Virus record (IMG/VR): IMGVR_UViG_3300008448_000010
DNA length: 64,000 nt
DNA from: an uncultured virus (IMG/VR IMGVR_UViG_3300008448_000010)
Taxonomy: Duplodnaviria; Heunggongvirae; Uroviricota; Caudoviricetes
Direction: 5' to 3' (one strand)
The position numbers and the translations under genes were made by a program. Position 1 is the stretch's first letter, and each line of letters opens with the position of its first letter. Below, in pieces: positions 10,306 to 60,821 of the stretch. Below the pieces are notes generated by a model. That model was not told the DNA's origin. It saw nothing but the letters and a program-made list of their open reading frames with translations, and made no database searches.

Positions 10306-10749
10306 TACATAAATCTTATAGTAGGTAATTGTTCCCCCGGGTATATTCTACCTCAGATGTAGCCCCCATGATCTCAAGTTTATTTTACTAAAAACTGGAC
10401 AAAGGGATATGGTTTTTTAATATATAAGGGAGGAAGGAGGGTCCCTATATAACACATCCCCCCACTCTCAGCCAGCCGGGGTACCCCCCATTGTTTTATA
10501 CAGCTTCATACTAATCAGGAATTATTTTCTAAAATAAATTCTACCAGGAAATAGTTTTAGTATTACTATGAAGTACATAGTAACTATGTTATGCTATGTA
10601 GTATAGTATTGTATAGTATATACTAGAGGATGTCAAAGGTCTTGGCTCACCACACTATATATATAGTATAGTATATTATATTCTATATATAAAGCCTTCG
10701 GCATTTACAGCTTTATACTGTTAGGAATATTAATTTAAAATTTAAAGTT

Positions 10750-10896
10750 ATGTGGTATAATAGAATTGTAATGGATGAGAATAATAATGAAATATTAAGA
10801 GAGAAATGTTTTGTTAGTGAAGTGTATGAGTTATATAATGGATTAGGTATGGATGTATGTGGTAATTATATAATTGAATTTTGGAGTGAAGAATAA
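10750..10896 (+). CDS. small early protein (48 aa, MWYNRIV...)
   Basis: Read from sequence; lies between motif copy 2 and a terminator. Confidence 0.6.
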   Translation: MWYNRIVMDENNNEILREKCFVSEVYELYNGLGMDVCGNYIIEFWSEE

Positions 10897-10922
10897 AGGG
10901 ATTAACATCCCTTTATTTTTTT
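10895..10922 (+). terminator. intrinsic terminator
   Basis: AAAGGGAT-taac-ATCCCTTT plus T-tract. Confidence 0.7.
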
Positions 10923-10960
10923 CTTTTAGCCTGCGGCAGCTACAGCTTTATACTAATACT

Positions 10961-11058
10961 AAAATAATAAATGTTTCCAGGGGGGAACAGGGCCAGCCGT
11001 GGCTACTGTTTAATATACCTACGAGAGGATTCCTATGGGAAGCATTTATTATTTTTTT
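10961..11058 (+). ncRNA. candidate ~95-nt structured small RNA
   Basis: 18-bp closing stem 10961-10978/11038-11055 encloses a GC-rich branched core; it sits alone between motif copy 3 and a T-tract. Confidence 0.6.
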
Positions 11059-11116
11059 ACAACAGCCTGCAGCAGCTACAGCTTTTAACTATTAATAAAC
11101 TTTAAAACTATATATT

Positions 11117-11491
11117 ATGAAAACAATTACTTACAAGAAAAAGATTGAAGTAGAAGCTACTGTAGCTTTTCCTGTTATTACATTTGTTGCTGAGAAAATC
11201 AGAATGTTTGAAGATGGTTACTCATGGGATACTATGGGTTATGTACCAAGATATGATGGGCTTACTATTGATGGTTATCATAAACTTACAGGCATGTATT
11301 GTGATGATATATGGAAAATGCTTGAAACATATGTCATGGAAACTTATCATGAAAAACGTACAGGATATGGTTCAATAGATTATCATGTGTATTCTGGTAA
11401 AGATGTTAATCTACCTGAGTTACCTAAGTTAGAAAACACAAATGGTAATGATGACCATGCAGACTTAGTTAACATGTTTAAGAACTTATAA
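11117..11491 (+). CDS. hypothetical early protein
   Basis: 124-aa ORF between motif copy 4 and a terminator. Confidence 0.75.
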   Translation: MKTITYKKKIEVEATVAFPVITFVAEKIRMFEDGYSWDTMGYVPRYDGLTIDGYHKLTGMYCDDIWKMLETYVMETYHEKRTGYGSIDYHVYSGKDVNLPELPKLENTNGNDDHADLVNMFKNL

Positions 11492-11511
11492 GGGGAGTAA
11501 TCCCCTTTTTT
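11490..11511 (+). terminator. intrinsic terminator
   Basis: AAGGGGA-gtaa-TCCCCTT plus TTTT. Confidence 0.75.
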
Positions 11512-11676
11512 GCTTATGCCTGCGGCAGCTTTAGATACAGCTTTAGACTATTAAGGATTATAATTAGTATTGTTACCTTTTCTTTAACCAGGTAAATATC
11601 CAGTAAGCTGCTGGCCAGAGTTCAACTGAGTACATAATGAACAGGGTTTGGTCTATGTCCCTATACTATAAAGACC

Positions 11677-11831
11677 ATAATTAATGCACCATTCTCACTT
11701 CCCAAGGGTGAGCAGTTGTAATATAGGTAGCGTGAACAGGAATAGAGCTTGCAGATTACTGTTACTTTTATAATAGAAATATTATAACGGTTGAAGGGCA
11801 AGTATATTACAACTGAGTGCAGAGGGGTTAT
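11677..11831 (+). ncRNA. twister ribozyme (type P1) with extended P5 insert, copy 1
   Basis: P1 ATAAT/GTTAT; TAA; P2 TGCA/TGCA; CC; P4 CTCAC/GTGAG with loop TTCCCAAGG; 13-bp P5; GAGGG. Covaries with copy 2. Confidence 0.75.
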
Positions 11832-11843
11832 TACCCCTTTTTT
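11823..11843 (+). terminator. intrinsic terminator overlapping the twister 3' end
   Basis: AGGGGT-tatt-ACCCCT plus TTTTT. Confidence 0.7.
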
Positions 11844-11925
11844 AAATAGCCTGCGGCAGCTTTATATACAACTTTGGACTGTTAGGGATAGTAATTATTA
11901 TTAATCCATTAAAAAAATTAAAGTT

Positions 11926-12222
11926 ATGGAAAAAGTTAAAGTACAAGCAACATTAGTGAATGTTGCAAACAATGCATTATCATTTGTTAATGCAGAAGGT
12001 AAAACTACATCTTACCGTAGATGTGTAGTTAATTTCAATAATACAGATTATTTTGCAAAGATTTGGGAAAAATCTTTTCAGAATGGTGTTACAGTAGGAA
12101 ATACCTATACTGTTGAAATACAAATGGACGGTGAAAATTATTGGCTTACTGTACTTAATGGTACACAAGCAAAGGTTGCAACAGCAGAAGACTTTGCACA
12201 CCTGTTTAGTTTTGCAGTATAA
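11926..12222 (+). CDS. small beta-rich early protein (possibly OB-fold-like)
   Basis: 98 aa with alternating beta-strand pattern; fold call is tentative. Confidence 0.7.
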   Translation: MEKVKVQATLVNVANNALSFVNAEGKTTSYRRCVVNFNNTDYFAKIWEKSFQNGVTVGNTYTVEIQMDGENYWLTVLNGTQAKVATAEDFAHLFSFAV

Positions 12223-12232
12223 GACAAACCAC

Positions 12233-12266
12233 ACAAAGCACACCCTTAATTGGGTGTGTTTTGTTT
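12233..12266 (+). terminator. intrinsic terminator
   Basis: ACAAAGCACACCC-ttaatt-GGGTGTGTTTTGT. Confidence 0.7.
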
Positions 12267-12307
12267 ATAAAGCCTACGGCAGTCTTAGTACAGCTTTATA
12301 CTAAAAG

Positions 12308-12668: not shown

Positions 12669-12896
12669 ATGGAAAATGTTTATTGGACTATGAAAAATGG
12701 TCAAAAGATTAATGTTGATACTATGGATATACAACATTTAAGAAATACTCTTAAGCTTATTATTAATAATAAAGCAAGAGTAATAACAACACCTGTAAAA
12801 CCTAAGTTTGAAATACAAGGTGATATAGCACAAAACTTCATTGAGCAAATGCTTGAAGAAGATTATGCTCCTGAAGATTATGATGATCTTCATTAA
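12669..12896 (+). CDS. hypothetical protein (YWTMKNGQKI...HLRNTL)
   Basis: 75-aa ORF with A-rich leader. Confidence 0.75.
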   Translation: MENVYWTMKNGQKINVDTMDIQHLRNTLKLIINNKARVITTPVKPKFEIQGDIAQNFIEQMLEEDYAPEDYDDLH

Positions 12897-13196
12897 TTAA
12901 TGTACCATTCCTGATTCCCAAGGTCAGGCAGTTGTAATACATAGGCATAAGACTACAGTTGTAGTTATAAATCCATACAGAGTTTAATTAACTCCAAGGT
13001 GGTATAGTTATGTCTGGTTTGCTAACACTTCAATCATTTAGCTAATGATTTGTGGAAACCACTATGCATTTTATGCTTGTTAATGGAAATCCTGTTATGG
13101 GTATTCTTACTGAACCTTCATATTAAAAAAGTCCCTAGACTTGTAGGTAGTGTAAAGGTAACAATGTATGTGTATTACAATTGAGTACAGAGGGAT
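12896..13196 (+). ncRNA. twister ribozyme with ~225-nt structured P5 insert, copy 2
   Basis: TAA 12898-12900; P2 TGTA/TACA; CC; P4 CCTGA/TCAGG with loop TTCCCAAGG; P5 12929-12941/13171-13183; GAGGGA at 13190. Confidence 0.72.
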
Positions 13197-13199
13197 ACC

Positions 13200-13380
13200 A
13201 TAGCATAAGTGGTGATGAATCAATGCAAGTATATGATACTTATTATCATACATATAGGTTGAAAGACCTTGAAATCCAATAACATAAGATACATGAACTA
13301 ATGATTGTAGTCATTATTGGTGCATATGAACAGGTGATGCTTAGAGGTTCATGGGTAGAAAGTTATTAGCATTAAACTTA
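13200..13380 (+). ncRNA. candidate structured RNA downstream of twister copy 2
   Basis: Non-coding. Helices ATGCA/TGCAT, TATGATA/TATCATA, AGGTT-GAAA-GACCT and CCAATAA/TTATTGG; possible pseudoknot CATGAAC/GTTCATG. Confidence 0.45.
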
Positions 13381-13409
13381 AGGGGAGTAATAAGATTACT
13401 CCTCTTTTT
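13380..13409 (+). terminator. intrinsic terminator
   Basis: AGGGGAGTAA-taaga-TTACTCCTCT plus TTTT. Confidence 0.7.
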
Positions 13410-13604: not shown

Positions 13605-13822
13605 TGAATACATTAATATTTCTATGGTATCTGATTACAGGTACCATAGTATATGAAAAAAACATTGATGGTAGAAATACCTATAGAATGGAATTTAGTG
13701 ATACTACTCTAATTACAGAAGGTGGAAATAAGTTCTATGGTACTACAGTTGATTATGTTTATAAGGAAGAGATTCTGGAATACATAGAATCTGGAACCTT
13801 TGAGTATAATGAAGATTATTAA
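13604..13822 (+). CDS. hypothetical protein
   Basis: ORF track. Confidence 0.65.
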   Translation: MNTLIFLWYLITGTIVYEKNIDGRNTYRMEFSDTTLITEGGNKFYGTTVDYVYKEEILEYIESGTFEYNEDY

Positions 13823-22766: not shown

Positions 22767-22787
22767 GTTTAATTAAATAAAAATGAT

Positions 22788-23225
22788 ATGAAACAGACAG
22801 CAGTAGAATGGTTAATTGGGCAGATGAAAACATACAATATGACTCTTTCAGTTCAGAACACTAGTCATCAAAATGTAATAGACTTTTATAAGGCTGTTGA
22901 AGAAGCCAAAGAAATGGAGAAATTACATATAATAGTAGCTTGGAAAGATGGAGATGGAGAGTTTGATAAAGCAGCAGATTCATTGTCTGAATTATACTAT
23001 AATGAAACCTTTAAATCAAAACATAAGTATGACCCTTTTTATGCAGATATAATTAACCAAGCCAAAGCAATGGAGAGATATCAGAAAGATGACTCAATTG
23101 AAAAACAAGTAAGTATTTTAAAAGATACACTTGAAGAAATGATGACAGGATTTGACTCTGAAGAAAATAGAATAGATTTTATTCTTGATATTTGCAATGG
23201 CTATAAGAAAAGAATTAACCTTTAA
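22788..23225 (+). CDS. MKQTAVEWL-family protein (fusion of two units)
   Basis: Blocks TAVEWL, AKEMEK and YYNETFKS, then a second AKAME block. Confidence 0.75.
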   Translation: MKQTAVEWLIGQMKTYNMTLSVQNTSHQNVIDFYKAVEEAKEMEKLHIIVAWKDGDGEFDKAADSLSELYYNETFKSKHKYDPFYADIINQAKAMERYQKDDSIEKQVSILKDTLEEMMTGFDSEENRIDFILDICNGYKKRINL

Positions 23226-23236
23226 ATCAGAATAAG

Positions 23237-23422
23237 ATGAAACAAACAGCAGTAGAATGGTTGGTTGAGCAAATGAAATTAGATGAATTATTTAATGCAG
23301 ATTATTTTATTGAACAAGCAAAAGAAATGGAGAAGGAGCAGATAATGGATGCTTTTAATGGTGAGCCACATTGTGATGGAGATGGTGATAGATACTACAA
23401 CGAAACCTTTAAATCAGAATAA
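23237..23422 (+). CDS. MKQTAVEWL-family protein
   Basis: Same three conserved blocks. Confidence 0.75.
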   Translation: MKQTAVEWLVEQMKLDELFNADYFIEQAKEMEKEQIMDAFNGEPHCDGDGDRYYNETFKSE

Positions 23423-23423
23423 G

Positions 23424-23645
23424 ATGACAGCAGTAGAATGGTTGATAGAAGAATTAAGAGGAGCTCATGTCAAAGGAGATTTTATCTTTAATGGAGTTAT
23501 AACTTCTGAATTGATTGAACAAGCCAAAGAAATGGAGAAGGAGCAGATTACTGAAGCACACACATTTGGCTATGTTATAGGAGGTGGTAAGGGAGATTTA
23601 TATAATCCTGAGCAATACTACAATGAAACCTTTAAATCAGAATAA
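23424..23645 (+). CDS. MKQTAVEWL-family protein (start MTAVEWL)
   Basis: Same three blocks; ATG lies in the 24-bp junction repeat. Confidence 0.75.
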   Translation: MTAVEWLIEELRGAHVKGDFIFNGVITSELIEQAKEMEKEQITEAHTFGYVIGGGKGDLYNPEQYYNETFKSE

Positions 23646-23646
23646 G

Positions 23647-24039
23647 ATGAGACAGATAGTATATAACTCAGTAAAATGCCTTGAGTGTAACAAGGTATTA
23701 GTAAGTAGACACAGACATGACTATGTAACCTGTGGTTGCCCCAATGATGCTATGGCAGATGGTGGTAACGAGTATGAAAGGTATGGTGCAATGGACATGG
23801 ATAAGATTGAAACTCATTATGTCTATGCAGATGATGACTTTGAAATTGTTAGAAAATATGCAGTAAGAGGTAGCAGAGGTAAGTATGGTGAAACACCATT
23901 AACTTGGATAGCTATAGCTGACATGGATGACGACTACCTACATGCAGTACTTGACTATGGTGGAGATGATTGGCATCTTGAATTAATGAATAAAGAAATA
24001 GAATATAGAAAAAATGGGAAAAATAATACTGGAGTTTGA
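23647..24039 (+). CDS. Zn-ribbon-like hypothetical protein (CxxC...SRHRHDYVTCGC...DGG)
   Basis: Start at the ATG in the third junction repeat. Confidence 0.7.
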   Translation: MRQIVYNSVKCLECNKVLVSRHRHDYVTCGCPNDAMADGGNEYERYGAMDMDKIETHYVYADDDFEIVRKYAVRGSRGKYGETPLTWIAIADMDDDYLHAVLDYGGDDWHLELMNKEIEYRKNGKNNTGV

Positions 24040-33406: not shown

Positions 33407-33574
33407 ATGATAGATTTTGAAAAGTGGTTAGAAGTTTTGAAGAATAAAACACTAACAGATGAATTAATAAAAGAAATACTTGAAAAAGTAGAAGATATAC
33501 ATGAAGATGCTTATGGTGAAGGATATGGTGATGCTAAAAATGAAATTATTTATCAAATAAAATATAAGATGTAA
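33407..33574 (+). CDS. small protein (55 aa, KW..LK..TLTDEL)
   Basis: Read from sequence; paralogous to 34614..34736. Confidence 0.6.
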   Translation: MIDFEKWLEVLKNKTLTDELIKEILEKVEDIHEDAYGEGYGDAKNEIIYQIKYKM

Positions 33575-33921
33575 TGGCACATCCAATGCAACATTGCAAA
33601 TCCTCAGTTAGAAAATGGGGTGGTCAGTTATCTGATTACCAACCTATTCATGATTGGTTTGATGAAACTAAGGCTTGGATAGGACACAGTAAACACAGAA
33701 TGTTTAGACATCATAGTGAAGGTATATTTGAATGTGAAAAAGTATTTGGTAACTCATTTATAAATTCAGATGGTAAAACTGTATACACTAGATATGTTGG
33801 AGAACAGCATGTAAAAGAAGATTGTAATAATTACATTCCTACTGCTAAAGAATGGGTTGATATGATATCATCAGGTAAACCTAAAGAATGGGCAATAAAA
33901 ACTTTAAAAATTGAAGACTAA
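33574..33921 (+). CDS. DUF6915-like protein, ends KIED
   Basis: HP..H..SS..KWGG, HDWFD, HR.FRHH, EQHV.ED motifs. Confidence 0.7.
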   Translation: MAHPMQHCKSSVRKWGGQLSDYQPIHDWFDETKAWIGHSKHRMFRHHSEGIFECEKVFGNSFINSDGKTVYTRYVGEQHVKEDCNNYIPTAKEWVDMISSGKPKEWAIKTLKIED

Positions 33922-34205
33922 TGGAAGATGTAAATAACATATTTACAGTAGACACTGTAATAGAAGAAGGTAGTTATATAAAAGTAACTGGAGAGTATCA
34001 AATACCTGACAGTTCATTATTCAAAAGAGGTGATATACTTACTGAAGATAAATATAATGGTCATCAGATATATGTTTCTTTTGGAACTAAAGATAAAGAT
34101 GGAAAAGATGGTTTAATACTAGATACTAGAAGCATGCATCCTGCTATTAAAAAACCTTTAGACGCAGTTATTTTGGGATTAAATTTATTTAAAATAGAAG
34201 ACTGA
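33921..34205 (+). CDS. hypothetical protein, ends KIED
   Basis: ORF track. Confidence 0.7.
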   Translation: MEDVNNIFTVDTVIEEGSYIKVTGEYQIPDSSLFKRGDILTEDKYNGHQIYVSFGTKDKDGKDGLILDTRSMHPAIKKPLDAVILGLNLFKIED

Positions 34206-34405
34206 TGACACAAGAAAAAAAAGTAAAAGAAATCAAAGAAAAAATAGAAGCTTTAGTTAATGAAGGTATAAAACTTTTAGAAAGTAATTATGATATGGAT
34301 TATACTAAATCTGATAATCCTGCACATATTACTATGATGTATTTAAATAGTGCATTATGGGAAGTAGATTCTTTAGATGAAGAAAATTTAAAAATAGAAG
34401 ACTAA
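34205..34405 (+). CDS. hypothetical protein, ends KIED
   Basis: ORF track. Confidence 0.7.
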   Translation: MTQEKKVKEIKEKIEALVNEGIKLLESNYDMDYTKSDNPAHITMMYLNSALWEVDSLDEENLKIED

Positions 34406-34614
34406 TGAAAAAAGAAAGAAAAAAAGAATGGTATTCTAAAATTAAAGAAGCATCTGCTCTTTGGTTTAAAGAAAATCCTGATTATCATCCTGCATTTAAT
34501 TATTATGATTCAGGTGAAGTTAGTATTCCAAATGATTCTGAGTACTATAGAGTACCTATAGAAATGTGGAAAGAATATCATGAAGAATTGTATAATGTTA
34601 AAATAGAAGACTAA
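34405..34614 (+). CDS. hypothetical protein, ends KIED
   Basis: ORF track. Confidence 0.7.
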   Translation: MKKERKKEWYSKIKEASALWFKENPDYHPAFNYYDSGEVSIPNDSEYYRVPIEMWKEYHEELYNVKIED

Positions 34615-34736
34615 TGACAGAAGAAGAATTATATAAGTGGATATACAATTTAAAATTGCAAACACTTACAGATGAACTTAAAGATACTATAGTTGAAAAA
34701 ATTCAAGATGTAGTTTGGACTTTAACAAATAAATAA
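34614..34736 (+). CDS. small protein (40 aa, MTEEELYKW...TLTDEL)
   Basis: Read from sequence. Confidence 0.55.
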   Translation: MTEEELYKWIYNLKLQTLTDELKDTIVEKIQDVVWTLTNK

Positions 34737-49937: not shown

Positions 49938-52900
49938 TTATTGACAATCAGTTGATGTTCTTGGTATTCCTGGTAATCCATCTGGTGCATTAAGATTATC
50001 TGTAGGTGGTTGAGTAACAAAGTTTTTAAATCCTTCTATATCTTTTTTAGAACCTAGTATGTTAATTTGTTCTGACTTAGGTACAATAATAACTTGGTAA
50101 GGTTTAAGTTCTCTTGTAAATCCATCTGCAGTTTCTGTTTCAATGTAATAATCTTCACTACTTTCTTCTGCTATATAACCATCTTTAGTTTTATCAATAT
50201 TTTTAGCATCTAATAAATCTGTTACAAATTTAGTTCTTTGTGGATTTAATACATTAATTATACTTGGATTTAAATTTTGAGTTTTTACACCATTACCTTG
50301 TTTATCAAATTTCCAAGCATAAATTGTATCAGCTGCATTTTTATCCGTAGTAAAGAAGAAACCTAATTTATCATACTCAGGAGTATCAAAAATTGTTGCA
50401 TTCTGTGTTGCTTTAAATTCATCTTTAAACTCTTCAATTTTTTCCCCACTACCATGATAAACAATATCTTTAACTTGACTGTTTGGGAATATAGTACTAA
50501 GATACTCTGAGTATTGTTCAGGAGTTCCTATTGATGCTAATTCAGGATTAGAATCAAATAGTTCTGACACACCTTCTTTAACACTAGTAGATGATTGAGT
50601 AGGTTTAAATGTATTAACATATACATCTCTGATAGCTTGTTTAGCAGCTTCTTCTACTTTTTTACCCTTATACTGTTCTCTTGGTAACCATTTACCATCT
50701 TTTTGCACATTGTAAGATTCAATATCTCTTGAACCTATGCCTGCAAAGTTTTTAGTAAGAGTAGGTGTATCAGTTTCTTCAAACCATCTATTTCCATCCC
50801 ATTTATACCAAGATTGTGTAGCTAAATCCCATACATAAACAGGTTTACCTAATTTAATTCCCAGTTGTACTGCTGTATTTGTTCCTCCTTTTACAATATG
50901 TTTATAAGAATTTACTGATTTTGTTATGTCAGTAGTATTTTTAGGAGCATCTTTATCAACTACTTGTGTGATTTCAGCAATAGCATATACAGCATCTGCA
51001 TTAGCTACTTGATAATAATTTCTTACTTGTAAATTTCCTTGTAAAGTATCTGGATAACTTTGTCCAAGTAATCTCTCTACTTCTGTTCTAGCTTGATCCA
51101 TTTGTTCTTTAGTAAGTACTGTAGCTTTTATACCAGCATTTCTAAGTTTTTGAGACAAGTTAGCATTACCAGCATCTTTATAATGCATATGTTTAGTAAC
51201 ACCAAATTCTCTACCTATCATATCCCAGAAAGTATCTCCACCATAAGCTCCTCCAGAATGATTAGTAAATTCAGCTGGATTAACACTAGTAGATGATTGA
51301 GTAGATTCTTCTCCAATAGGTTTAATACCCATTTTTTCAAGCATAGCTACTGCTTCTTCTTCAGACATAAATTCATCTTCTTCTTTAACTACAGAAGGTT
51401 CTGGTTTAAGATATTGCTTAGGTGTAACTAATAAGTTTTTAAATACTTTGTTACCGGGCTCAACTAACTTATCAAAGATAACAGCTAGTGTGTCTTCATT
51501 AAGTTGTTTATTTATAAATATTTCAGAAGCTGTTTGCATTACTCCTATGAATCCTTCATAAGGTAATGCTCTTGTAAAGCCATACTTACTATAACCAATA
51601 CCATGTTGATACATCATCATTTGTGGTAATAAAGCAAATAGTTTACTTATTCTTTTATTATCTTCAGGATCTATTACTTTTTTAATATCTTCATTTCCAA
51701 GATCTTCTAAATTTTGGAAATAAATTTCAGCTAACTGTGCATCCTTTAATGATTTAGTATCATTTAAACTTAGCACACGTTCACCAGTTTTAACCTTTGG
51801 TATTGTAAATTGGGTTAAAATAGGATACTTATTTTTAAGTTCTGAAAATTCTTCTACCATATTTAAAACCATATCTGTATAAGATTGGCCATCTAATGTC
51901 ATAATAGTTTCTCTATTAAATGCATTAATTAATGCTCTTTGATTAATATATGCTTCATAAGATTGTGCAGGATCTTTGATTATTGAGTTGATTTTTAAAT
52001 AATCTTTATTAGTTTCAAGTGATTTCATTGAATAAAGATTTCTTTGAAGTTCTCTCTCAAATACATATTTAAAATATGTGGATTCATTAGGAAACAATTT
52101 TTCTACATTTCCAAAACCTCTCAATCCTTGTTTAGTATAACCAGCAGCATCTGTATTATCTCTTAAGTATAATTTTTTACTATACTCATTAGATAATCTT
52201 GTCTTGTCAATATATAGTGTACCATTAATTATTTGTGCACCATTTTTAACACCAGCTTTTTCTTTAACAGGAAACCCTTCAAAGTTATCAGGCATTGAAG
52301 TTATATTACCATTTTCATCTATAAAATTAGACTTGTAATTTTGATAGATATAATTAGGTATAGCATTTTTAAATTCTGTAATGAATCTTCTTGTACCATC
52401 ATGACCTCTTCCAAAAGTTCTAGTAATTATATTTTGTTTTAACTGGATAGTTTTAACAATATAATTTGTTACAGTATCATTATTTCTTAATGGAAATAGT
52501 GGAACTATTAAGTCACCAATAAGTTTATTATCATAAAAAGAACCTAAGATAGAATCCATCATTTTTTCAACAGTACCCTCTTCTATTGTTGACATTGATT
52601 TAGCATCTTCAATAGATAAGTTTCTTCTTATTATCTCTTGTAAAGTTTTAGAAGTCTTAGTATCTGGATTAGACATAAATTTTAAAGATGTATATCCACG
52701 GGTAGATTTTTCAAGTTCTAAGAAATGTAAGAACATTGCTACTGCATGATTTTTTAATTCTGGAGCATTAGGATTCTTAACAAGTTTACTCATCATTTTA
52801 ATGTCAAACTCAAGAGCATCATTTAATATTCCAGATTTAGATGTAGCATCAACGGCAGCCTTATAATATCCTTTAGCACTAACTAAGCTACCAGCTTTTT

Positions 52901-55900
52901 TAATACCTACTGTCTCAAGTGCATTTACAGCAGCTTCATATTTAGTTTTAGTTTCAGGAAAGTTTTCATCAATTTTACCTGTCATTTTAGCATAAGCACC
53001 TTTAATTATTCTTTGTTGTTTAGCATATTCTCTTACAAGAGGATTTGAAACAAACATAATAGCATGTTCTTTTGGAACACCTGCTTTAAGTAAGAATGTA
53101 ATCATTGGTGCTATCTCATAGTTACCTTGTATAAAGAATATCCATGGATTTTTCTCAACATCCACTGCACCATTCATCATTTGTGAAAATAAGTCACCAA
53201 TATTATCTAAACCATCTGCTGTATCAGTACCAGATAGAGATACATTACCCTCTGTAGTTTTATTATGTGGTAATAGTAATCTTGTTTTATTAGTCTGTTT
53301 TTTACTATCAACATTTCTTTGTAAGCCCTCATCAAAAACAGGATTTTGATAAGTAGCAGGTAATGAAGCTCCAATAGAATTAAGTACTGGATGTAATGCA
53401 TTTTCAATAGCAATTAGACCAAGTACTCTTTTACCAACCATATTTACTTCATGCTTGTGTAAGTTATAAGATACTTCTAGAGTTCTAGTAGGACTAATTA
53501 CTTTTTCACCTTTCTTACCAATTCTTTCAGATTCTTTATGCATGTTCTGAAATCTATTGTATTCAACAACATCATTCTCAATCTTATCAGCAATATCATC
53601 TTTTAATAAATAGGTATCATTTGGTCTAACTAAACCTGCATAGTTATCTGGTAACTCAAGAATACCTTTAATAGTTGATATTAATTCATTCTCTAGAGCA
53701 GCTTTTTGAATTTTAATTAAGTTAGTAGCTGTTTTTGAACCTTCTGGTGTAGCAGCTAATCTATTTACTTTAGCTAATAATTCATCATTAGTAATACCTG
53801 TTTTAACAAAGTTACCTTTAGTATCAATTGTAGGCATAAATGTGGTCAACTTATCTACGTCATAGTCAGTTCCTGATTTAGCTACAATCTCAGTTGGAGG
53901 AATAATAATATTTCCAGCTGCCGGATCTAAGAACTCATATACTTCCATAAACTCCATAGAGTTTAATCCTTGTACTGGAATCCTAACTGCAGATAAAGTA
54001 ACAGACTTTCTATTATCATTTTGATCTAACCAAGCATCTTCTTTAATCATATCATTTAATCTAGCTCTTGTCCCAATAGGTTGGCCATCTAAATGATTAA
54101 GTTTAAGTAAATTAACAAAGTCTCCTTGTAATGCTATAGCAACTTTCATAGCTAATGTTTTACCATCAGCTGTGTCATTGTTATAAAAAGGAAGATTATT
54201 AGTACCCATAAACTTTAGTATATCTGCTTTAGTACCTTTCTTAAGATTGTTATCCCATAGTCCATTAGACATAGAACTAGCTACTTGAACTAATGGTTCT
54301 CCTTTTACTTTTTGTTTAATAAGTCTTTTCTCTACTAATGCAACTAAGATAGCTTCAATTTCATCAGCCATTAAGTGTAATGATAAATCTGTTTTTATAG
54401 AGTTATCTCTATTAAGACCTACCATTTGTACAAGATGTTCTGGAACATCCTTTCTTTCTAGTTCTCTTTGTACTACATTTAAGAAATCTTTTAAGTTTCC
54501 GGTATATTTACCAGTTTCTTTATTTTCTTCATAACCAATCTCATGTAATAGTTCTAGTTTTAAAATCTTACTATAATTATCTACAGCTTTTTCATAAGCG
54601 TTAATAACTGCTTTATTATTAGAATTAATAATTTTACCATTACGATATAAACCACCCAAAATAAGTTTTCTTAACTGAGTTGAAAATACAGTTTTGTTTT
54701 TATACTTATTTGGAACAGATGTTACATTTTTAAGATTCTCAAGATAAATAGTATTCTTTGTAAATTTGATGTTTTTCTTTAAAACTTTTTGATCAGACTT
54801 AGGCTCATAGATTTCATCTGCTACTGCTTCACCTTCTTCATTAACTGTAGAAGTTTCACTACCTACTTTAGAACCAGTTTGGAATGATACATACTGAATA
54901 TTATCTTCCATCATTTGTCTATGTAAAGACTGAAGATCTGACCCTTCAATCACTGAAGGAATTAATGGAGCTAATGCAAATTTATGCATAGCTGTTACTG
55001 GAAGTTTAGTATTAGCTAATGCACCAAAGTTCTGAACTTTATATACAGGAAACATTTCTGTTATGTCAGATGCATTTACTTCTTCTCCTCTTAAAATTCT
55101 TTGGAAAAGAATCTCTTGCTCATTTGACCAATTATTCTCAAGGTATCTTAAAGTTCTATATGCATCAAAAGTTATAAAACCTTGACCATCAGCTTCTTCT
55201 ATATCTTTATATTTACTTATTTCCTTTTCAACCCTAATGTCTATTTCAGCTTTTGCATTCTTAACACCTGCTTCTTTATATCTTCTTTCATAATCTTTTC
55301 TAAGACCTTTTTCAATTTGTCCTAAATACTCTGAAGTTCTTTTTACATCTTGAATAATAGCTGTATTATATGTTCCATCATATGCTATTGTAGGCATACC
55401 AGCTTTTTTAGCATAGGATGTTTTAGCTAAAAAATCTTTTACAAAGTTTCTAGCGGCAATGTCAGTTCTAAATCCTCTACCACCTGAAGTTGATCCAGTA
55501 TTTCTTTTATGTAATTCTTCTTTATCATGATTGTACTGAGACATATCACCATAAAATAATACAGCCATTTCAAAGTTCTGAACCCAAGAATTATAGGTAT
55601 AAGTTTCAACAAGTTTATCTTCAATTTGATTTTCTGCAACACCTAAGTCACTCATTTTTTTAATCAAATCCTTACTAATAAAATTAGCATTAGTAAGTAA
55701 GCCAGTATTTATTTTAGTTTGATCTTTAAAATAAGTTCTTACATTATCTTTAACAGTAATTAATAAACCTGTATTATCATTTCTAAGAAATTCTGTAAGA
55801 TTAAAATTCTTTTTTTCTGCAATAGCTTTATCAATAGCTTTATATATTTGTTCTTTTGAGCTTTTAGTAAGTACATTATCAAATGCAGTAAATACTTCTC

Positions 55901-58900
55901 CAGCCATAAGACCATTACCTAAATCTCTATTGTATCCTGCATATTTTGAATACTCTTTTTTGTTCTGTCTAAACTTAAAGATTCTCTCAGCTTCTGCTTC
56001 CATATAAGGTAGCATGTGAGCTTTAAATCCATATTCATATGCTGTATTATCTGTAAACATTTTAACATCAATCCAAAGATGACCATCACTACCTTCTTTA
56101 CCTGGTAATCCAATTACTCCACCTTCTATCTTAGCACCAAATGAAGATGACTTAGATGCATGTCTCATAAATTCTTGAACACCATCTTTAAGCATAGTAT
56201 TAATTTCTTGAAGAAATTTACCGTTAACATCTAATGATGTTGTATTTAAACCAGTATCTTCTCCTTCAATTTGAGTTCCAGAATCCATAAATAATTTTAA
56301 GGATCTATTTGCTCTTCTTTTTTGTTCAGGAGAACTTAATTCATACAAAGTTCTAATGGTAGCTAATCTCTTTGTGTAAGGATTAGTTGCCGGATCAAGA
56401 TAAGACATATGTTGAAACTTATCCGTTGTCCATAGATCAGAAAGTTTAGTAGCATTGTTTAATGCATATACTTGTTTGCTTATAGTATTGTTCTCAATAA
56501 ATTCAGACACTAAGTTTCTTTCTGCATTAAGAACCATACCAGTAGATGCTTCTAATCCATATTTACTTTGAAGAGTTGCAATTTCTTTTATCTTATTTTT
56601 TTGACCTTCTCTAGTAGTACCAATTATATTTTCTGGTATACCATCCATAAGAGTTTGTATGGGATCATTTTTAAACTTAGCAATAACTGTTTTTACAGTG
56701 CTATTAGTATTTTCTAATTTAGACTTGTCATTTAGTCTTTTAACAATATCATAAATATATGGTAGACCAAATTGCTCAATAGTTTTAGTATCTTTTTTAA
56801 GTGTATTTTTAATTATACTTATATCATCTAAATAAAAACCAATAGCTCTTGCAAATGCAAAAGAATTAGAAGTATCTAATTTACCATTTATTCCAAAAGC
56901 ATCTACAACTTTTTGTAAATTTAAAGTTGGAATATTATCTCTTCCAATTCTATCTACATATAAATTAGTTGTAGAAGCTTTAAAATTTTCTTGAAATTTT
57001 CTTATAACATTAAATACATCATTAGATGCATCAGTTACTGCAGTACTATATTCAAATATATCTATCATTTTTGTACCATAGTATCCATCAGGTACTTCTT
57101 TTTCTCCTATTTTAGTTTTAAATACTGTTAACTGAATATAAGGTATTCTTGATTTACTAAAGTCTTGCCAAATAGCTGAAGTAGCTTGAAACTCATATTG
57201 ATTAGTTGAATTTTCTGGATTAGCTATCTTAGTATCAACAAGTTGTTTAATCTGAGCATTTGTTTTTGATTCCTCAACTAATTTATCATACTGTTCTTGA
57301 GCATCTTGAATACCACCAATAGCTCTTACTGTGTTATTCCAAGTAGTTCTAAAGTCTGCAAGTTTTTTAAAACCAAGTTCATTATATTGATACTCAATTT
57401 TATTAGTATTTTTATTAATCTTACCTTCATGTAAACTCTTTAAAATATAAAGAGTCTCTTTACCTGCTAGTTCTATTAGTGATTTCTGGCCATCTTTCTT
57501 GTCACCATATCTTTCTGTATTCTCAAGATTTGCAGGCTCCATTAAGTTACCTTCTTCATCTAATTCAAGAGCAGTATATTTCTGTCTCATCAAATCATAG
57601 GTACTATTATCTACATGGTATTTAATTAAACCATTTGTAGTATCTCCATAGTTATCTAAACCAGCTTTAAGAATTCTTATTCTATTTTCTAAAAGCTCTT
57701 TCTTAAATTCATTTTCTTTAGTGTCTTCTGTATCTTCAAGTTGTTTAGTAGTGCTGTTTAACTTATCTTGTAATTTAATTTTTATTAACTTATATAAGGG
57801 TTCTCTATTTCTTGAATCTAATAGAATACTTAAGGTACCTGATTTAATTACTTTTGAAGGAACTTGATCATCAATGATATCAGAGATGATTGAATCCATA
57901 CTATCTTTAAGTAGATTAGAATCTTGTCTATTAAGTACTTGGTCAGTCTCTGTTCCCGGTTTAACAACACCACTATTTCTATATAACACATCAAACATTA
58001 CATTGTCAATAGATGGCGTGTAAATGTTTAAACCTTTTCCAAGGTATAAGTTATCAAATAACTCTTTGACAGCTTTAATATCTGCAGTATCTGTTACTGA
58101 ACCTTTTCCAAAGAGTTCTCTTAAAAAGTTTAATATTTTTCTAAATAAGCTATTTCTTTTTGGAGAGTTAGCTTTAACCTTTCCTGTTCTTACATACTCA
58201 CGGAAATCCTCAGCAAGCATTTCCTCTATTTCAAAGAAGTCAACCTTAGTTCCAAGCTTCTTCTGTACCTCTCTATACAAAGCTTTTTTCTCAGCCCTAC
58301 TTAGGTATAATTGAGAAAATCCATGCCATGCTTCATGATATACATCTACCATAGAACCCTTTGCTGCAAGATCAATCATACCCAGATTACCATTAAGAGT
58401 GGCACCATAAGCTGTAAATCTTGCAAATGCATCTGAGTTAACTATATTAGCTACTTCTCTAAATCCAATATGTTTATTTAATGGAGAGTTAGCCCACCAT
58501 GTTTTTGCATCTGCTATTTGTTCTTCAGATACATCTGATGGTAATTCACCTTTTCTATAGAAAAATATATCTGCTGCTCCACCATCTTCAGGTTTAGCAA
58601 CATTTTTAGGATCAAGTGTTTCATTAATTTCTGCTTCAATTTCTTCTACAGTCTTTGTTGGTGCTGCAGTTTTTGGAGCATCAAAGTCTTCAGTTTCTCT
58701 TACATAACCAAGTAACTTATCTCCTGCTTTTACTTCAATAACATTAGTAAACTTCTTACCATTAAATTCAGCTTCTGGAACTAGATTTAAACTAACTTCA
58801 GTTGCAATGTCTTCAGCAGTAATATTTTTTTCTTTATTATAAAACTCAATAATATTTCCTTTTGGAGTTGTTATATGCCATTTAGATTGTGCACCAAATG

Positions 58901-60821
58901 GTTTTGATATTGTTCCTCTAACTTGTTTACCACTTTCTAAAACACTAATAATTTTTTCTCTAGTTTCTCTAACACCAAGTACTGGTGCAACATCTTCAGG
59001 TTCAGATAATGTTTCAAATAAATCATCTGTAACTAAATTATCTGTATTCTCTTGAGCTTTAGCTAATTGTTCTGTGAACTGATTAGGAATTGCAAAACCC
59101 ATATAACTATTAAAAGCTTTACTTTCTTGAGTTACATCTAAAAAGATTTTTGTATTTGGTAATCCTTTTAATAATTCAATATAGTCAGAGTAGTCATCAT
59201 TTAATGTATTGGTCTGAAGATCATAATCTTGATAAAGATTAGCATCAAGTAACTCTTTATTATAAGTCATTTTAGCTGAATAGAATTTACCAACTGTACC
59301 AGAAGCTTCCATCAATGATTTAGAAATGACATCAGCTGCTTTAGGTGCATCTAAGTTTACAGTAATCATTTCACTATAACCTTGTTGAAAAGTTGTAGGT
59401 GAATACTTATATATAAGTGTATCTGTATTTTCTAAATATTGTAAATCATGTTTTCTTGTTGCAGGAGAAGCATTATTTGCTAAGAATTGAGCTACAAATG
59501 AATACTTCTGCTTATTAGTCATGTTCTTATTAGTCAATACTGCAGCAATCTTTTTAGCAATATCTTCAGTAAGGTTTGGTCTATCTACTTTAATCTCTTC
59601 ACCTTTAATAGTAACTATAGCTTGACCTTTTTCTAAACCAGCTCTTGGTGACTTTACAAGATCAAGAGATCTAATAGCATCATTATCATCTTCTAGTATA
59701 AGTGTTACATTAGAAAGATTTAATGACTGAGGTTTATTACTACCAACTCCTGTACTAACTCCAACAATGTCAATTAATGGAGCTGTGTTATCTTTAATTA
59801 GTTTTTGTCTAAAGTTATAGAGTTCTTCAAATTCCTTTTGCTGTCTAGCTTCTGCTTCTTCAAAAGAAATATCAGCTTTTTGTGCTAAAATTGCCGGATC
59901 AATAATCTGATCACTTTTACCATAGATATCTGTTACTCTATAATTAGAACCTTCTTTTCTTACTTCTCTTAAAAACTGAAACACTATTGTGCCCCCTAGT
60001 TCTTTAGTAGTAATATTTCCTTTCTCATCAAAGAATAATGGATTCCCAGTTTCAACATTATCTGTAATAACCATTAAGAATATCTTATCTGGTGTAGTTA
60101 CATTTGCTTGAGCCTTTCCAGCACCAAGTAAAAATCCAGCACGGTTGAGTAATCTTAATGTAGTCTTATCTAATAACTCAGGATTTATATCAGAAAGCTT
60201 AATAGGCTTTAACTTTAATACTGTGTTTTGATAAATAAGTTCTTTTAATGGAGTATTGTTATTTGCATTCTCTCTAATAGCACTTAATGTAGTATAGATA
60301 GTTCTTCTACCTTGATCTAAGGTTTCTGTTTCAATATCTTTATTAGGATCTTTAGAAATAAATTCTTGGAATGTAGTAGATAATGCTGAATATGGTTGAT
60401 AATTAAATGGATCAACAGTAATTGAATCTGAAGAAGTTTCTTTTATTTCAAAAGCTTCATTAGCTTTTTTTTCAACTAGTTCTTTTTTAACTTCTGGATT
60501 TAAAGTTGGATTAAAATAAGTAACGGCATTAATAAGACCATTGTCATCTTTCTTAAATTGTTTAATCAACGGTCTAAGCATGTCTGTGCTTATCTCAAAC
60601 TCTTCTATGCTAGGTCTAAATGAAGCAGTACCAATCAAAGATGGTACTTGTTGCAAAAACTTAGCTGCAGTATCTACATCCTTATTTTTTGCAATCTTAT
60701 TAAAAAGATCTGTCATGTATTGTTTAGCATCAAATGCTTCCCCTTGGTTGAGCATGTGACCATAAACATTAGCATATAATTTCTCAACTTGAGATTGAGT
60801 AAGTGCACAAGTAACTTTCAT
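49938..60821 (-). CDS. crAss-like single-chain virion RNA polymerase (double-psi beta-barrel), polyvalent, with zincin, SLOG-like and ART-like domains
   Basis: 3627 aa; catalytic DYDVD at 53853-53867 preceded by RIP; DGQG motif; HEAWH at 58323-58337. Confidence 0.85.
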   Translation of the reverse strand: MKVTCALTQSQVEKLYANVYGHMLNQGEAFDAKQYMTDLFNKIAKNKDVDTAAKFLQQVPSLIGTASFRPSIEEFEISTDMLRPLIKQFKKDDNGLINAVTYFNPTLNPEVKKELVEKKANEAFEIKETSSDSITVDPFNYQPYSALSTTFQEFISKDPNKDIETETLDQGRRTIYTTLSAIRENANNNTPLKELIYQNTVLKLKPIKLSDINPELLDKTTLRLLNRAGFLLGAGKAQANVTTPDKIFLMVITDNVETGNPLFFDEKGNITTKELGGTIVFQFLREVRKEGSNYRVTDIYGKSDQIIDPAILAQKADISFEEAEARQQKEFEELYNFRQKLIKDNTAPLIDIVGVSTGVGSNKPQSLNLSNVTLILEDDNDAIRSLDLVKSPRAGLEKGQAIVTIKGEEIKVDRPNLTEDIAKKIAAVLTNKNMTNKQKYSFVAQFLANNASPATRKHDLQYLENTDTLIYKYSPTTFQQGYSEMITVNLDAPKAADVISKSLMEASGTVGKFYSAKMTYNKELLDANLYQDYDLQTNTLNDDYSDYIELLKGLPNTKIFLDVTQESKAFNSYMGFAIPNQFTEQLAKAQENTDNLVTDDLFETLSEPEDVAPVLGVRETREKIISVLESGKQVRGTISKPFGAQSKWHITTPKGNIIEFYNKEKNITAEDIATEVSLNLVPEAEFNGKKFTNVIEVKAGDKLLGYVRETEDFDAPKTAAPTKTVEEIEAEINETLDPKNVAKPEDGGAADIFFYRKGELPSDVSEEQIADAKTWWANSPLNKHIGFREVANIVNSDAFARFTAYGATLNGNLGMIDLAAKGSMVDVYHEAWHGFSQLYLSRAEKKALYREVQKKLGTKVDFFEIEEMLAEDFREYVRTGKVKANSPKRNSLFRKILNFLRELFGKGSVTDTADIKAVKELFDNLYLGKGLNIYTPSIDNVMFDVLYRNSGVVKPGTETDQVLNRQDSNLLKDSMDSIISDIIDDQVPSKVIKSGTLSILLDSRNREPLYKLIKIKLQDKLNSTTKQLEDTEDTKENEFKKELLENRIRILKAGLDNYGDTTNGLIKYHVDNSTYDLMRQKYTALELDEEGNLMEPANLENTERYGDKKDGQKSLIELAGKETLYILKSLHEGKINKNTNKIEYQYNELGFKKLADFRTTWNNTVRAIGGIQDAQEQYDKLVEESKTNAQIKQLVDTKIANPENSTNQYEFQATSAIWQDFSKSRIPYIQLTVFKTKIGEKEVPDGYYGTKMIDIFEYSTAVTDASNDVFNVIRKFQENFKASTTNLYVDRIGRDNIPTLNLQKVVDAFGINGKLDTSNSFAFARAIGFYLDDISIIKNTLKKDTKTIEQFGLPYIYDIVKRLNDKSKLENTNSTVKTVIAKFKNDPIQTLMDGIPENIIGTTREGQKNKIKEIATLQSKYGLEASTGMVLNAERNLVSEFIENNTISKQVYALNNATKLSDLWTTDKFQHMSYLDPATNPYTKRLATIRTLYELSSPEQKRRANRSLKLFMDSGTQIEGEDTGLNTTSLDVNGKFLQEINTMLKDGVQEFMRHASKSSSFGAKIEGGVIGLPGKEGSDGHLWIDVKMFTDNTAYEYGFKAHMLPYMEAEAERIFKFRQNKKEYSKYAGYNRDLGNGLMAGEVFTAFDNVLTKSSKEQIYKAIDKAIAEKKNFNLTEFLRNDNTGLLITVKDNVRTYFKDQTKINTGLLTNANFISKDLIKKMSDLGVAENQIEDKLVETYTYNSWVQNFEMAVLFYGDMSQYNHDKEELHKRNTGSTSGGRGFRTDIAARNFVKDFLAKTSYAKKAGMPTIAYDGTYNTAIIQDVKRTSEYLGQIEKGLRKDYERRYKEAGVKNAKAEIDIRVEKEISKYKDIEEADGQGFITFDAYRTLRYLENNWSNEQEILFQRILRGEEVNASDITEMFPVYKVQNFGALANTKLPVTAMHKFALAPLIPSVIEGSDLQSLHRQMMEDNIQYVSFQTGSKVGSETSTVNEEGEAVADEIYEPKSDQKVLKKNIKFTKNTIYLENLKNVTSVPNKYKNKTVFSTQLRKLILGGLYRNGKIINSNNKAVINAYEKAVDNYSKILKLELLHEIGYEENKETGKYTGNLKDFLNVVQRELERKDVPEHLVQMVGLNRDNSIKTDLSLHLMADEIEAILVALVEKRLIKQKVKGEPLVQVASSMSNGLWDNNLKKGTKADILKFMGTNNLPFYNNDTADGKTLAMKVAIALQGDFVNLLKLNHLDGQPIGTRARLNDMIKEDAWLDQNDNRKSVTLSAVRIPVQGLNSMEFMEVYEFLDPAAGNIIIPPTEIVAKSGTDYDVDKLTTFMPTIDTKGNFVKTGITNDELLAKVNRLAATPEGSKTATNLIKIQKAALENELISTIKGILELPDNYAGLVRPNDTYLLKDDIADKIENDVVEYNRFQNMHKESERIGKKGEKVISPTRTLEVSYNLHKHEVNMVGKRVLGLIAIENALHPVLNSIGASLPATYQNPVFDEGLQRNVDSKKQTNKTRLLLPHNKTTEGNVSLSGTDTADGLDNIGDLFSQMMNGAVDVEKNPWIFFIQGNYEIAPMITFLLKAGVPKEHAIMFVSNPLVREYAKQQRIIKGAYAKMTGKIDENFPETKTKYEAAVNALETVGIKKAGSLVSAKGYYKAAVDATSKSGILNDALEFDIKMMSKLVKNPNAPELKNHAVAMFLHFLELEKSTRGYTSLKFMSNPDTKTSKTLQEIIRRNLSIEDAKSMSTIEEGTVEKMMDSILGSFYDNKLIGDLIVPLFPLRNNDTVTNYIVKTIQLKQNIITRTFGRGHDGTRRFITEFKNAIPNYIYQNYKSNFIDENGNITSMPDNFEGFPVKEKAGVKNGAQIINGTLYIDKTRLSNEYSKKLYLRDNTDAAGYTKQGLRGFGNVEKLFPNESTYFKYVFERELQRNLYSMKSLETNKDYLKINSIIKDPAQSYEAYINQRALINAFNRETIMTLDGQSYTDMVLNMVEEFSELKNKYPILTQFTIPKVKTGERVLSLNDTKSLKDAQLAEIYFQNLEDLGNEDIKKVIDPEDNKRISKLFALLPQMMMYQHGIGYSKYGFTRALPYEGFIGVMQTASEIFINKQLNEDTLAVIFDKLVEPGNKVFKNLLVTPKQYLKPEPSVVKEEDEFMSEEEAVAMLEKMGIKPIGEESTQSSTSVNPAEFTNHSGGAYGGDTFWDMIGREFGVTKHMHYKDAGNANLSQKLRNAGIKATVLTKEQMDQARTEVERLLGQSYPDTLQGNLQVRNYYQVANADAVYAIAEITQVVDKDAPKNTTDITKSVNSYKHIVKGGTNTAVQLGIKLGKPVYVWDLATQSWYKWDGNRWFEETDTPTLTKNFAGIGSRDIESYNVQKDGKWLPREQYKGKKVEEAAKQAIRDVYVNTFKPTQSSTSVKEGVSELFDSNPELASIGTPEQYSEYLSTIFPNSQVKDIVYHGSGEKIEEFKDEFKATQNATIFDTPEYDKLGFFFTTDKNAADTIYAWKFDKQGNGVKTQNLNPSIINVLNPQRTKFVTDLLDAKNIDKTKDGYIAEESSEDYYIETETADGFTRELKPYQVIIVPKSEQINILGSKKDIEGFKNFVTQPPTDNLNAPDGLPGIPRTSTDCQ
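50578..51304. repeat. 25-bp exact direct repeat (encodes TQSSTSV) bounding a 702-bp in-frame module of the RNAP gene
   Basis: TTAACACTAGTAGATGATTGAGTAG at 50578-50602 and 51280-51304. Confidence 0.85.

What the first reader, a model, noticed from the sequence alone, without database searches (positions are those of the whole stretch)
11677..11831. Twister-ribozyme-like RNA (copy 1) in its own non-coding transcription unit
Seen: ATAAT-TAA-TGCA-CC-ATT-CTCAC-TTCCCAAGG-GTGAG-[13-bp P5 with a 77-nt insert]-AG-TGCA-GAGGG-GTTAT. This maps element by element onto the twister architecture (P1, UAA in L1, P2, P4 with a UCCCAAG loop, T1 CCC/GGG). The T2 pseudoknot is CC/GG instead of the usual GC/GC. 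Predicted cleavage is between U11682 and A11683. The unit from motif 11518 to terminator 11843 has no sizeable ORF. The insert includes a TTATAATA-GAAA-TATTATAA hairpin. Inference: an early self-processing phage RNA that releases structured products.
Basis: partly seen in the sequence, partly recalled or inferred. Interest (0 to 1): 0.8.

Follow-up and report, generated by a model that had tools for sequence, protein, structure and literature searches.

The report
Remodelled twister-type ribozyme overlapping a terminator
A crAss-like phage carries an RNA that looks like a rebuilt version of the self-cutting twister ribozyme and belongs to a large phage family missed by the standard RNA catalogue; in this copy the cutting strand doubles as a stop signal for transcription, so it may cut poorly, and cutting has not been tested.

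Summary
The sequence is as described, in a crAss-like phage. It is one of 153 distinct intact cores that I collected (151 from viral contigs, 2 in the window). P2, P4, P5 and T1 pair almost fully, with compensatory changes. The cleavage-site U|AA and the catalytic GAGGG are kept. Rfam misses the family, even its natural short-arm members.

C11689 covaries with G11817 (C-G 122, U-A 28, U·G 3 of 153). That gives a 5-pair P2, a one-pair T2 and a 7-nt L4 closed by U·G. In the published rice-twister matrix the plain CC/GG swap is nearly inactive (0.06), so this is a remodelled core, not a canonical twister.

The 77-nt insert is unique, variable filler. In copy 1 the GAGGG strand is also the 5' arm of a terminator-like hairpin (10.9 kcal/mol against the ribozyme's 2D fold), the strongest such overlap of the 153. 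Copy 1 is therefore probably damped or gated.

Cleavage is untested and RNA evidence is weak. The scan reported this family before on other genomes. Verdict: new variant of a known kind.

The parts
11518..11549 (+). Repeated promoter-like motif (GCCTGCGGCAGC ... ACAGCTTTAGACT) ahead of the unit; promoter role inferred
   Evidence: 6 copies in 10694-12283; 7 matches in the window against 0.40 expected; copies aligned
11550..11676 (+). Non-coding leader, the would-be 5' cleavage product; poorly structured and not conserved
   Evidence: 11545-11682 folds at z +1.5; replaced by unrelated sequence in the orthologous unit L349
11677..11681 (+). P1 5' strand (pairs 11827-11831 only if the terminator-like hairpin is absent)
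   Evidence: inner pair probability 0.90 without the tail, 0.0 with it
11682..11684 (+). L1 U|AA; predicted cut between U11682 and A11683; A11683 is the general-acid equivalent
   Evidence: UAA in 155 of 160 distinct cores (partly fixed by search patterns); 69 of 81 have UAA-UGYA in the scan that left it free; role by analogy with PMC5408937
11685..11689 (+). P2 5' strand, five pairs (UGCAC with 11817-11821)
   Evidence: fifth pair C-G 122, U-A 28, U·G 3 of 153; 14 changes on both sides among 50 aligned sequences
11690..11690 (+). C of the proposed single-pair pseudoknot T2 (with G11706)
   Evidence: C-G 152, U·G 1 of 153; nearly invariant, so the pair rests on analogy, not covariation
11694..11712 (+). 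P4 (five covarying pairs plus U11699·G11707) with 7-nt L4 UCCCAAG 11700-11706; CCC 11701-03 is the T1 strand
   Evidence: P4 pairs 151-153 of 153 with many pair types; closing pair U·G 151, U-A 2
11713..11815 (+). P5 arm: 13-bp stem around a 77-nt variable insert (11726-11802) that holds an A/U hairpin at 11768-11787
   Evidence: family P5 length 12-295 nt, median 87; this insert matches none of the others
11816..11821 (+). Invariant junction A11816, then P2 3' strand GUGCA 11817-11821
   Evidence: A in 153 of 153
11822..11826 (+). L1 3' strand GAGGG: general-base equivalent G11822 and T1 strand GGG; also the 5' arm of the terminator-like hairpin
   Evidence: GAGGG in 73 of 80 members of the scan that left it free; T1 change C-G to U-A in 2 of 153
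11822..11843 (+). Terminator-like hairpin GAGGGGU-UAUU-ACCCCUU with a U run, mutually exclusive with T1 and P1
   Evidence: -11.5 kcal/mol, z -2.9; pair probabilities 0.91-1.0; not listed by the consensus scan
12893..13199 (+). Copy 2 of the same family, 2 nt after the stop of ORF 12669-12896; different P2, P4 and insert; P1 only 2 pairs; no terminator overlap
   Evidence: RNA-library contigs match from 12919 onward
11849..12222 (+). Next repeat of the motif and the 98-aa gene of unknown function downstream (context)

Best explanation
The element belongs to a large family of twister-derived RNAs in the early region of crAss-like phages. It keeps the twister active-site parts (U|AA, GAGGG, T1, L4 UCCCAAG) but has a rebuilt top: P2 has five pairs, T2 is one C-G pair, L4 is 7 nt closed by U·G, P3 is absent and P5 is long with a freely varying end. 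The family most likely cuts itself between U and A by twister chemistry (inferred). This would cut early non-coding or polycistronic transcripts into pieces whose 3' part has a 5'-OH, tightly folded end (inferred from established twister chemistry). Copy 1 is atypical. It sits at the end of a gene-free module, and its catalytic strand is also the 5' arm of the module's terminator-like hairpin, so the full-length RNA should cut slowly, or only after its 3' tail is trimmed or refolded. Shown: sequence, covariation, family size, competing folds in 2D models. Inferred: tertiary fold, cleavage, promoter and terminator function, biological role.
For: 153 distinct intact cores; P2 152-153, P4 151-153, T1 152-153 and the first five P5 pairs 151-153 of 153 paired. 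On 50 aligned members, 93.4% of cells are paired against 80.8% shuffled, 0 of 500 shuffles reach it, and slid controls give 32-51%. In the scan anchored only on L4 and the start of P5, 69 of 81 P4-forming hits have UAA-UGYA and 73 of 80 have GAGGG. Position 13 with the base before the P2 3' strand is the 8th strongest column pair after background correction, among known stem pairs. Position 13 is C or U in 79 of 79 members where it was left free, whereas the rice twister tolerates only a purine there (G13A/C31U 0.89; G13C/C31G 0.06; G13U/C31A 0.02). In the same matrix a U·G or U-A pair at the P4-closing position keeps partial activity (0.29, 0.48). P1 is dispensable in known twisters (PMC5408937), and here 80 of 153 have at most 1 pair, while the mean run of 2.2 exceeds the shuffled 1.13. 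Canonical twisters L125 and L150 score weakly with a model of this family (E 3e-5, 7e-4). Terminator competition. The phage is crAss-like.
Against: No cleavage data. Three features called conserved in twister reviews are changed at once (GC dinucleotide of T2, four-pair P2, G-C closing P4). Extending P2 in the rice twister is harmful (A40C 0.09, main text; G13C/A40G 0.03). The proposed T2 and the U·G pair barely vary, so they are not shown by covariation, and position 13 is also compatible with the last L4 base in 153 of 153. Counts are sequences, not independent events, and one search was enriched for non-C at position 13. Rfam gives no twister hit. Two RNA-library contigs of relatives run across the cut site (X5 records 9 and 13). 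2D energies leave out T1 and Mg2+ stabilisation, so the terminator may not win. The consensus scan did not list this hairpin.
Confidence: 0.62

Rival explanations
1. One reading: a twister with four-pair P2, two-pair T2 CC/GG and a 9-nt L4; copy 1 cuts efficiently and releases a structured product.
For: Position 13 can pair with the last L4 base in 153 of 153 (C-G 122, U·G 29, U-A 2); copy 1 has a full 5-pair P1.
Against: Only 1 change on both sides for that pair against 14 for the P2 extension on the same alignment; CC/GG swap 0.06 in the rice twister; terminator-like hairpin favoured by 10.9 kcal/mol in 2D; insert not conserved.
Confidence: 0.13
2. The family is a non-catalytic structural scaffold derived from twister (a nuclease block or protein-binding module) that protects variable early RNAs; the twister bases are kept for folding only.
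For: Core changes that are harmful in the rice twister; 23 of 112 L4-anchored hits are a subtype without P4 or the usual cut-site strand that mostly keeps UGCA-GAGGG; contigs that span the cut site.
Against: The U before the cut site, which pairs with nothing, is kept in 69 of 74 members with an NAA-UGYA head, and P1 pairing is above chance; both fit selection on cleavage.
Confidence: 0.13
3. Copy 1 is a coupled switch: folding of T1 captures GGG and blocks the terminator, so cleavage and read-through into the 98-aa gene go together.
For: The two folds are mutually exclusive. The overlap recurs in two other phages with different leaders and inserts, one with a different hairpin loop (L349, L352).
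Against: The overlap is rare: only L092, L057 and copy 1 of 153 have such a hairpin with 6 or more T in the next 10 bases, along with the interrupted hairpin of L118, and an exact-pattern scan found 2 loci. The downstream gene has its own motif copy. Two of three non-identical orthologous loci have a hairpin there but no ribozyme (L350, L351). This fits chance joining of modules at a shared AGGGG.
Confidence: 0.1
4. Chance resemblance or an assembly artefact.
For: No Rfam hit.
Against: 0 of 200 shuffles; more than 150 covarying relatives; an identical second record.
Confidence: 0.02

Closest known systems
Type-P1 twister self-cleaving ribozyme (Rfam RF03160; rice Osa-1-4), with optional P5
   Same: Order of elements, U|AA cut-site loop, GAGGG strand, T1 CCC/GGG with the A·A partner bases, L4 core UCCCAAG, dispensable P1
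   Different: Pyrimidine instead of G at position 13; P2 five pairs; T2 one pair; U·G instead of G-C closing P4; one L4 base fewer; no P3; long P5 always present (P5 occurs in 1% of annotated twisters, PMC6154101); no RF03160 match
T-variant twisters of Schistosoma mansoni (PMC8501958, passages)
   Same: Natural twister variants with weak or missing P1 that are reported to cleave
   Different: T-variants keep the GC dinucleotide and the GUCCCAAGC loop in the rows shown and head retrotransposons; this family changes the T2/P4 core, keeps U before the cut, and lies in phage early regions
Abundant intergenic early RNAs of crAss-like phage phi14:2 (bioRxiv 10.1101/2020.03.07.982082, passages)
   Same: Highly transcribed gene-free stretches of unknown function in the early region of a crAss-like phage
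   Different: phi14:2 gave no match to this family's model (the first look found 0 candidates), so they are analogous in place only

Membership tests
Type-P1 twister ribozyme | U|A cut site in the L1 loop (UAA) | tested here: met
   11682-84; 69 of 81 in the scan that left it free
Type-P1 twister ribozyme | L1 3' strand GAGGG with the general-base G | tested here: met
   11822-26; 73 of 80
Type-P1 twister ribozyme | Pseudoknot T1: three Watson-Crick pairs plus A·A | tested here: met
   152-153 of 153 paired; C-G to U-A in 2; the A·A bases are present, their pairing is by analogy
Type-P1 twister ribozyme | P2 of four Watson-Crick pairs | tested here: not met
   A fifth covarying pair, 153 of 153
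Type-P1 twister ribozyme | T2 from a conserved GC dinucleotide pairing with GC of L4 (two pairs) | tested here: not met
   CC 67, UC 11, CU 1 of 79; never G at position 13
Type-P1 twister ribozyme | Essentially invariant G-C pair closing P4 | tested here: not met
   U·G 151, U-A 2 of 153; the U is kept in 79 of 81 where free; scan 40 found only 3 canonical twisters with another base there
Type-P1 twister ribozyme | Stem P1 (conserved but dispensable) | tested here: inconclusive
   5 pairs in copy 1 but outcompeted in 2D by the terminator-like hairpin; family mean run 2.2 against 1.13 shuffled
Type-P1 twister ribozyme | Match to Rfam twister models | tested here: not met
   No hit in the window, in 9 loci that include short-arm members, or in 5 records; control canonical twisters hit at E 2e-10 to 1e-5, though below the gathering score
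Type-P1 twister ribozyme | Self-cleavage giving 2',3'-cyclic phosphate and 5'-OH ends | not testable with these tools
   Only assembled contigs were available
T-variant twister (S. mansoni) | Canonical T2/P4 core with altered P1 or A count, at the head of a retrotransposon | tested here: not met
   Core differs; no reverse transcriptase among the 43 window proteins scanned against PHROGs
Intrinsic terminator | G+C-rich hairpin followed by a U run | tested here: inconclusive
   7-8 pair hairpin, -11.5 kcal/mol, six U; not listed by the consensus scan, probably because the stem extends into the U run; function untested

The most novel reading that the evidence does not exclude
An active natural ribozyme subclass that reaches twister catalysis with a rebuilt core (5-pair P2, 1-pair T2, no G13, no G-C closing P4), used by crAss-like phages as a mobile processing cassette, and in copy 1 wired so that cutting and transcription termination exclude each other; the head-less relatives may act in trans or as decoys.
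Probability: 0.15. Interest if true: 0.82.

Novelty: new variant of a known kind. Interest (0 to 1): 0.56.

Why it matters
If it cleaves, the family breaks three features that reviews treat as fixed in twister ribozymes. It supplies more than 150 natural variants for testing how the double-pseudoknot stack can be rebuilt (five plus one pairs instead of four plus two). It shows a blind spot in Rfam-based ribozyme counts of phages. It also gives a concrete place to study two open questions: what phage ribozymes do, and what the gene-free early RNAs of crAss-like phages are for. Copy 1 offers a simple natural test of cleavage competing with termination.

Tried and rejected
Rfam on the window: no twister hit.

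T2 register CC/GG: rejected in favour of the P2 extension. Scans for a non-U base before L4 returned only 3 canonical twisters. The scan for C13 with a non-G last L4 base gave 7 of 7 chance hits without P4 or 3' half.

Insert as conserved cargo: 146 inserts fall into 118 clusters, 99 of them single, and copy 1's has no match.

Cultured phages: blastn of copy 1, a short member and the copy-2 region found only chance matches; phi14:2 had no model hit. Solved-structure search of the 3627-aa protein: 0 hits. tblastn of the 1952-aa protein: none.

RNA runs: 4 of 23 listed runs were laid. Copy 1's own insert was not covered in any, which proves nothing. Contig starts near 11694-11700 and 12919 may be graph branch points, and no DNA run was laid as a control, so they are not counted as cleavage evidence.

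Sigma-70 promoter scan: 39 sites against 35.6 expected, uninformative. Link to gene boundaries: only 6 of 83 members lie within 10 nt of an upstream stop and 31 of 86 within 60 nt of a downstream start, so no fixed intercistronic position. In one search the terminator pair probabilities were asked in the wrong register; they were corrected. No whole genome is held.

Full report
Observation. The architecture occurs twice in the window, at 11677-11831 and 12893-13199, and in 0 of 200 shuffles; a model built from the family finds no further significant copy. The stretch 11518-11843 has no + strand ATG frame longer than 29 codons.

Setting. The window is part of a crAss-like phage. Its 3627-aa protein matches phi14:2 g066, the catalytic RNA polymerase subunit (E 9e-15), and 14 of the 15 best primase rows shown are gut crAss-type or related uncultured phages (the crAss assignment of the 'cr' names is recalled). 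The element lies at the start of the rightward arm, among small genes with no PHROGs match. Six copies of a GCCTDCRGCAGY motif lie in 10694-12283 (7 matches in the window, 0.40 expected). Their promoter role is an inference: in phi14:2 the early transcripts had no detectable common upstream motif (bioRxiv 10.1101/2020.03.07.982082, passages).

Family. A scan for non-C at position 13 gave 50, and a scan anchored only on L4 and the start of P5 gave 120, again at the limit. After de-duplication, 160 distinct cores were parsed; 7 without GA at the start of the L1 3' strand were dropped, leaving 153 (110, 26, 15, 2 from the window). In genome contigs, 12 of 43 matches were complete, all in metagenome-assembled genomes of mixed taxa, several labelled Bacteroidota; these are probably binned phage contigs (inference). 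P2, P4, T1 and the first five pairs of P5 are paired in 151-153 of 153, with many pair types in P4. On an alignment of 50 members (copy 1 plus 49 picked by hand from 81 mid-length members), 93.4% of cells pair against 80.8% shuffled, and slid controls give 32-51%; the tool warns that relatedness inflates such controls. In the unbiased scan, 112 distinct matches remained after 4 near contig ends and duplicates were dropped. Of these, 81 form P4; 69 of the 81 have UAA-UGYA upstream, and 73 of the 80 with a located 3' arm have GAGGG. So the catalytic strands are conserved where no pattern forced them.

Corrected structure. Position 13 (rice-twister numbering from PMC5113685; C11689 here) covaries with the base just before the P2 3' strand (G11817): C-G 122, U-A 28, U·G 3 of 153, no mismatch, spread over ten or more P4 types. 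Folding gives the pair probability 0.98 and U11699·G11707 0.90. The best model is therefore a 5-pair P2, a single T2 pair C11690-G11706, and a 7-nt L4 closed by U·G. The published double-mutant matrix of the rice twister supports this reading (PMC5113685, whole main text and supplement passages). I read the values by counting columns, checked against mirror cells and against C14G/G30C = 0.64, which fits the text. G13C/C31G is 0.06, G13U/C31A 0.02 and G13A/C31U 0.89, while G23U/C32G is 0.29 and G23U/C32A 0.48. The same matrix also counts against easy activity: extending P2 there is harmful (A40C 0.09; G13C/A40G 0.03). The review PMC5408937 (section 11 and passages) lists the GC dinucleotide, the four-pair P2 and the G-C closing pair as conserved, and says P1 is dispensable. 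Activity of the rebuilt core is thus inferred from conservation, not shown.

Rfam. There is no twister hit in the window, in nine loci that include members with 12-46 nt arms, or in five records searched with RF03160. Three loci with canonical GC/GC twisters did hit (E 2e-10 to 1e-5, below the 67.2-bit cut-off), while L153, L159 and L124 in the same call did not. Missing Rfam is a property of the core, not of the insert.

Insert and leader. P5 length ranges from 12 to 295 nt. Of 146 inserts, 99 are single, and copy 1's matches none. The insert alone folds at z -0.6 and the leader at z +1.5. The orthologous unit L349 keeps the core but has another leader and another insert. Neither looks like conserved cargo.

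What is special about copy 1. GAGGG and the start of the P1 3' strand are the 5' arm of a hairpin 11822-11839 followed by a U run (-11.5 kcal/mol; pair probabilities 0.91-1.0). Keeping GAGGG free costs 10.9 kcal/mol in 2D, and the switch happens once the chain reaches 11836. Twenty of 153 members have some hairpin below -5 kcal/mol on this strand; copy 1's is the strongest. The overlap with a U run recurs in L349 and L352, while L350 and L351 have a hairpin at the same place without a ribozyme. The nearest held record G001 lacks copy 1 but keeps copy 2. The simplest reading is that early modules recombine at a shared AGGGG, which leaves copy 1 damped. A regulated coupling is not excluded. Caveats: the consensus scan did not list this hairpin, and tertiary energies are not modelled.

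Expression. Four of 23 listed RNA runs (three studies) were laid; all are assembled contigs. Contigs match copy 2 and the gene-free stretch after it: 12919-13382 and 12919-13363 without differences in X1 and X3 (one study), 12919-13172 in X5 and 12922-13113 in X6. In X1 and X3 nothing else of this phage's own sequence was covered; X5 and X6 also cover part of the gene 12669-12896. Relatives with other inserts are present in all four. Copy 1's insert was not covered. Two contigs in X5 run across the cut site. With no DNA control and no raw reads, this shows presence in RNA libraries only.

Literature. Nine searches of the held library (listings only unless stated) gave no paper whose title or abstract start describes this family. 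Passages were read in PMC6154101, PMC9901934, PMC10085705 and PMC8501958. PMC10085705 notes that hammerhead and twister ribozymes are enriched near phage-related genes and near each other. Roth et al. 2014, its alignments, and unnamed candidate-RNA lists were not seen and could hold members; bioRxiv supplements were closed. Earlier notes of this scan report the same family, with look-alike stretches in 21 windows of 20 genomes; two word searches for the P2 extension or terminator overlap returned nothing, which is weak evidence because only short excerpts are shown.

Verdict. A real twister-type RNA of an uncatalogued phage family with a remodelled core; it works like a twister (about 0.8 likely for the family) but fails three membership features. 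Copy 1 is probably a damped member. New variant of a known kind; interest 0.56.

Noticed in passing
window 10694-12283 (10694, 10929, 11065, 11518, 11849, 12272): Six copies of a near-palindromic GCCTDCRGCAGY motif followed by ACAGCTTTATACT-like text, most just after a terminator-like hairpin and kept in related phages; candidate early promoter of the virion RNA polymerase.
   Followed up: partly
L192, L201, L203, L210, L257, L298 and others: A head-less subtype: 23 of 112 L4-anchored hits have CU before CCYAAGG, mostly AUCAG-CU or UCAGU-CU, no P4 and no usual cut-site strand, yet most keep P5, UGCA and GAGGG. 13 of 18 strict matches have an AAUGYAYC nearby (no chance control). Disarmed copies, trans-acting halves or another fold.
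   Followed up: partly
window 13195-13406: Gene-free stretch after copy 2 that begins with ATAGCATAAGTGGTGATGA, seen after the core in several relatives (L046, L115, L236, L305); covered by RNA-library contigs and ending in a terminator-like hairpin. Possibly a second conserved RNA.
   Followed up: no
window 11618-11635: The leader holds CAACTGAGTACA, which equals the P5/P2 3' end of family members but lacks GAGGG; possibly a decayed remnant.
   Followed up: no
L054:2153-2547: GOLLD-like RNA (100.8 bits, E 9.5e-26, below the gathering score) between family copies.
   Followed up: no
L021:2343-2524 and 2641-2757: tRNA-like matches with long insertions in the anticodon arm near a short family member.
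   Followed up: no
L150 and L165, 349-489: Tandem pairs of canonical P1 twisters in viral contigs, all below the Rfam gathering score.
   Followed up: no
window 13642-13801: A 160-nt stretch absent from the otherwise identical record L348.
   Followed up: no
window 49938-60821: The 3627-aa virion RNA polymerase-like protein ends with DprA-like and ADP-ribosyltransferase-like matches.
   Followed up: no
window 22773-23650 and 33457-34712: Runs of small genes with repeated starts and ends (repeat families D2, D4-D7, D18).
   Followed up: no
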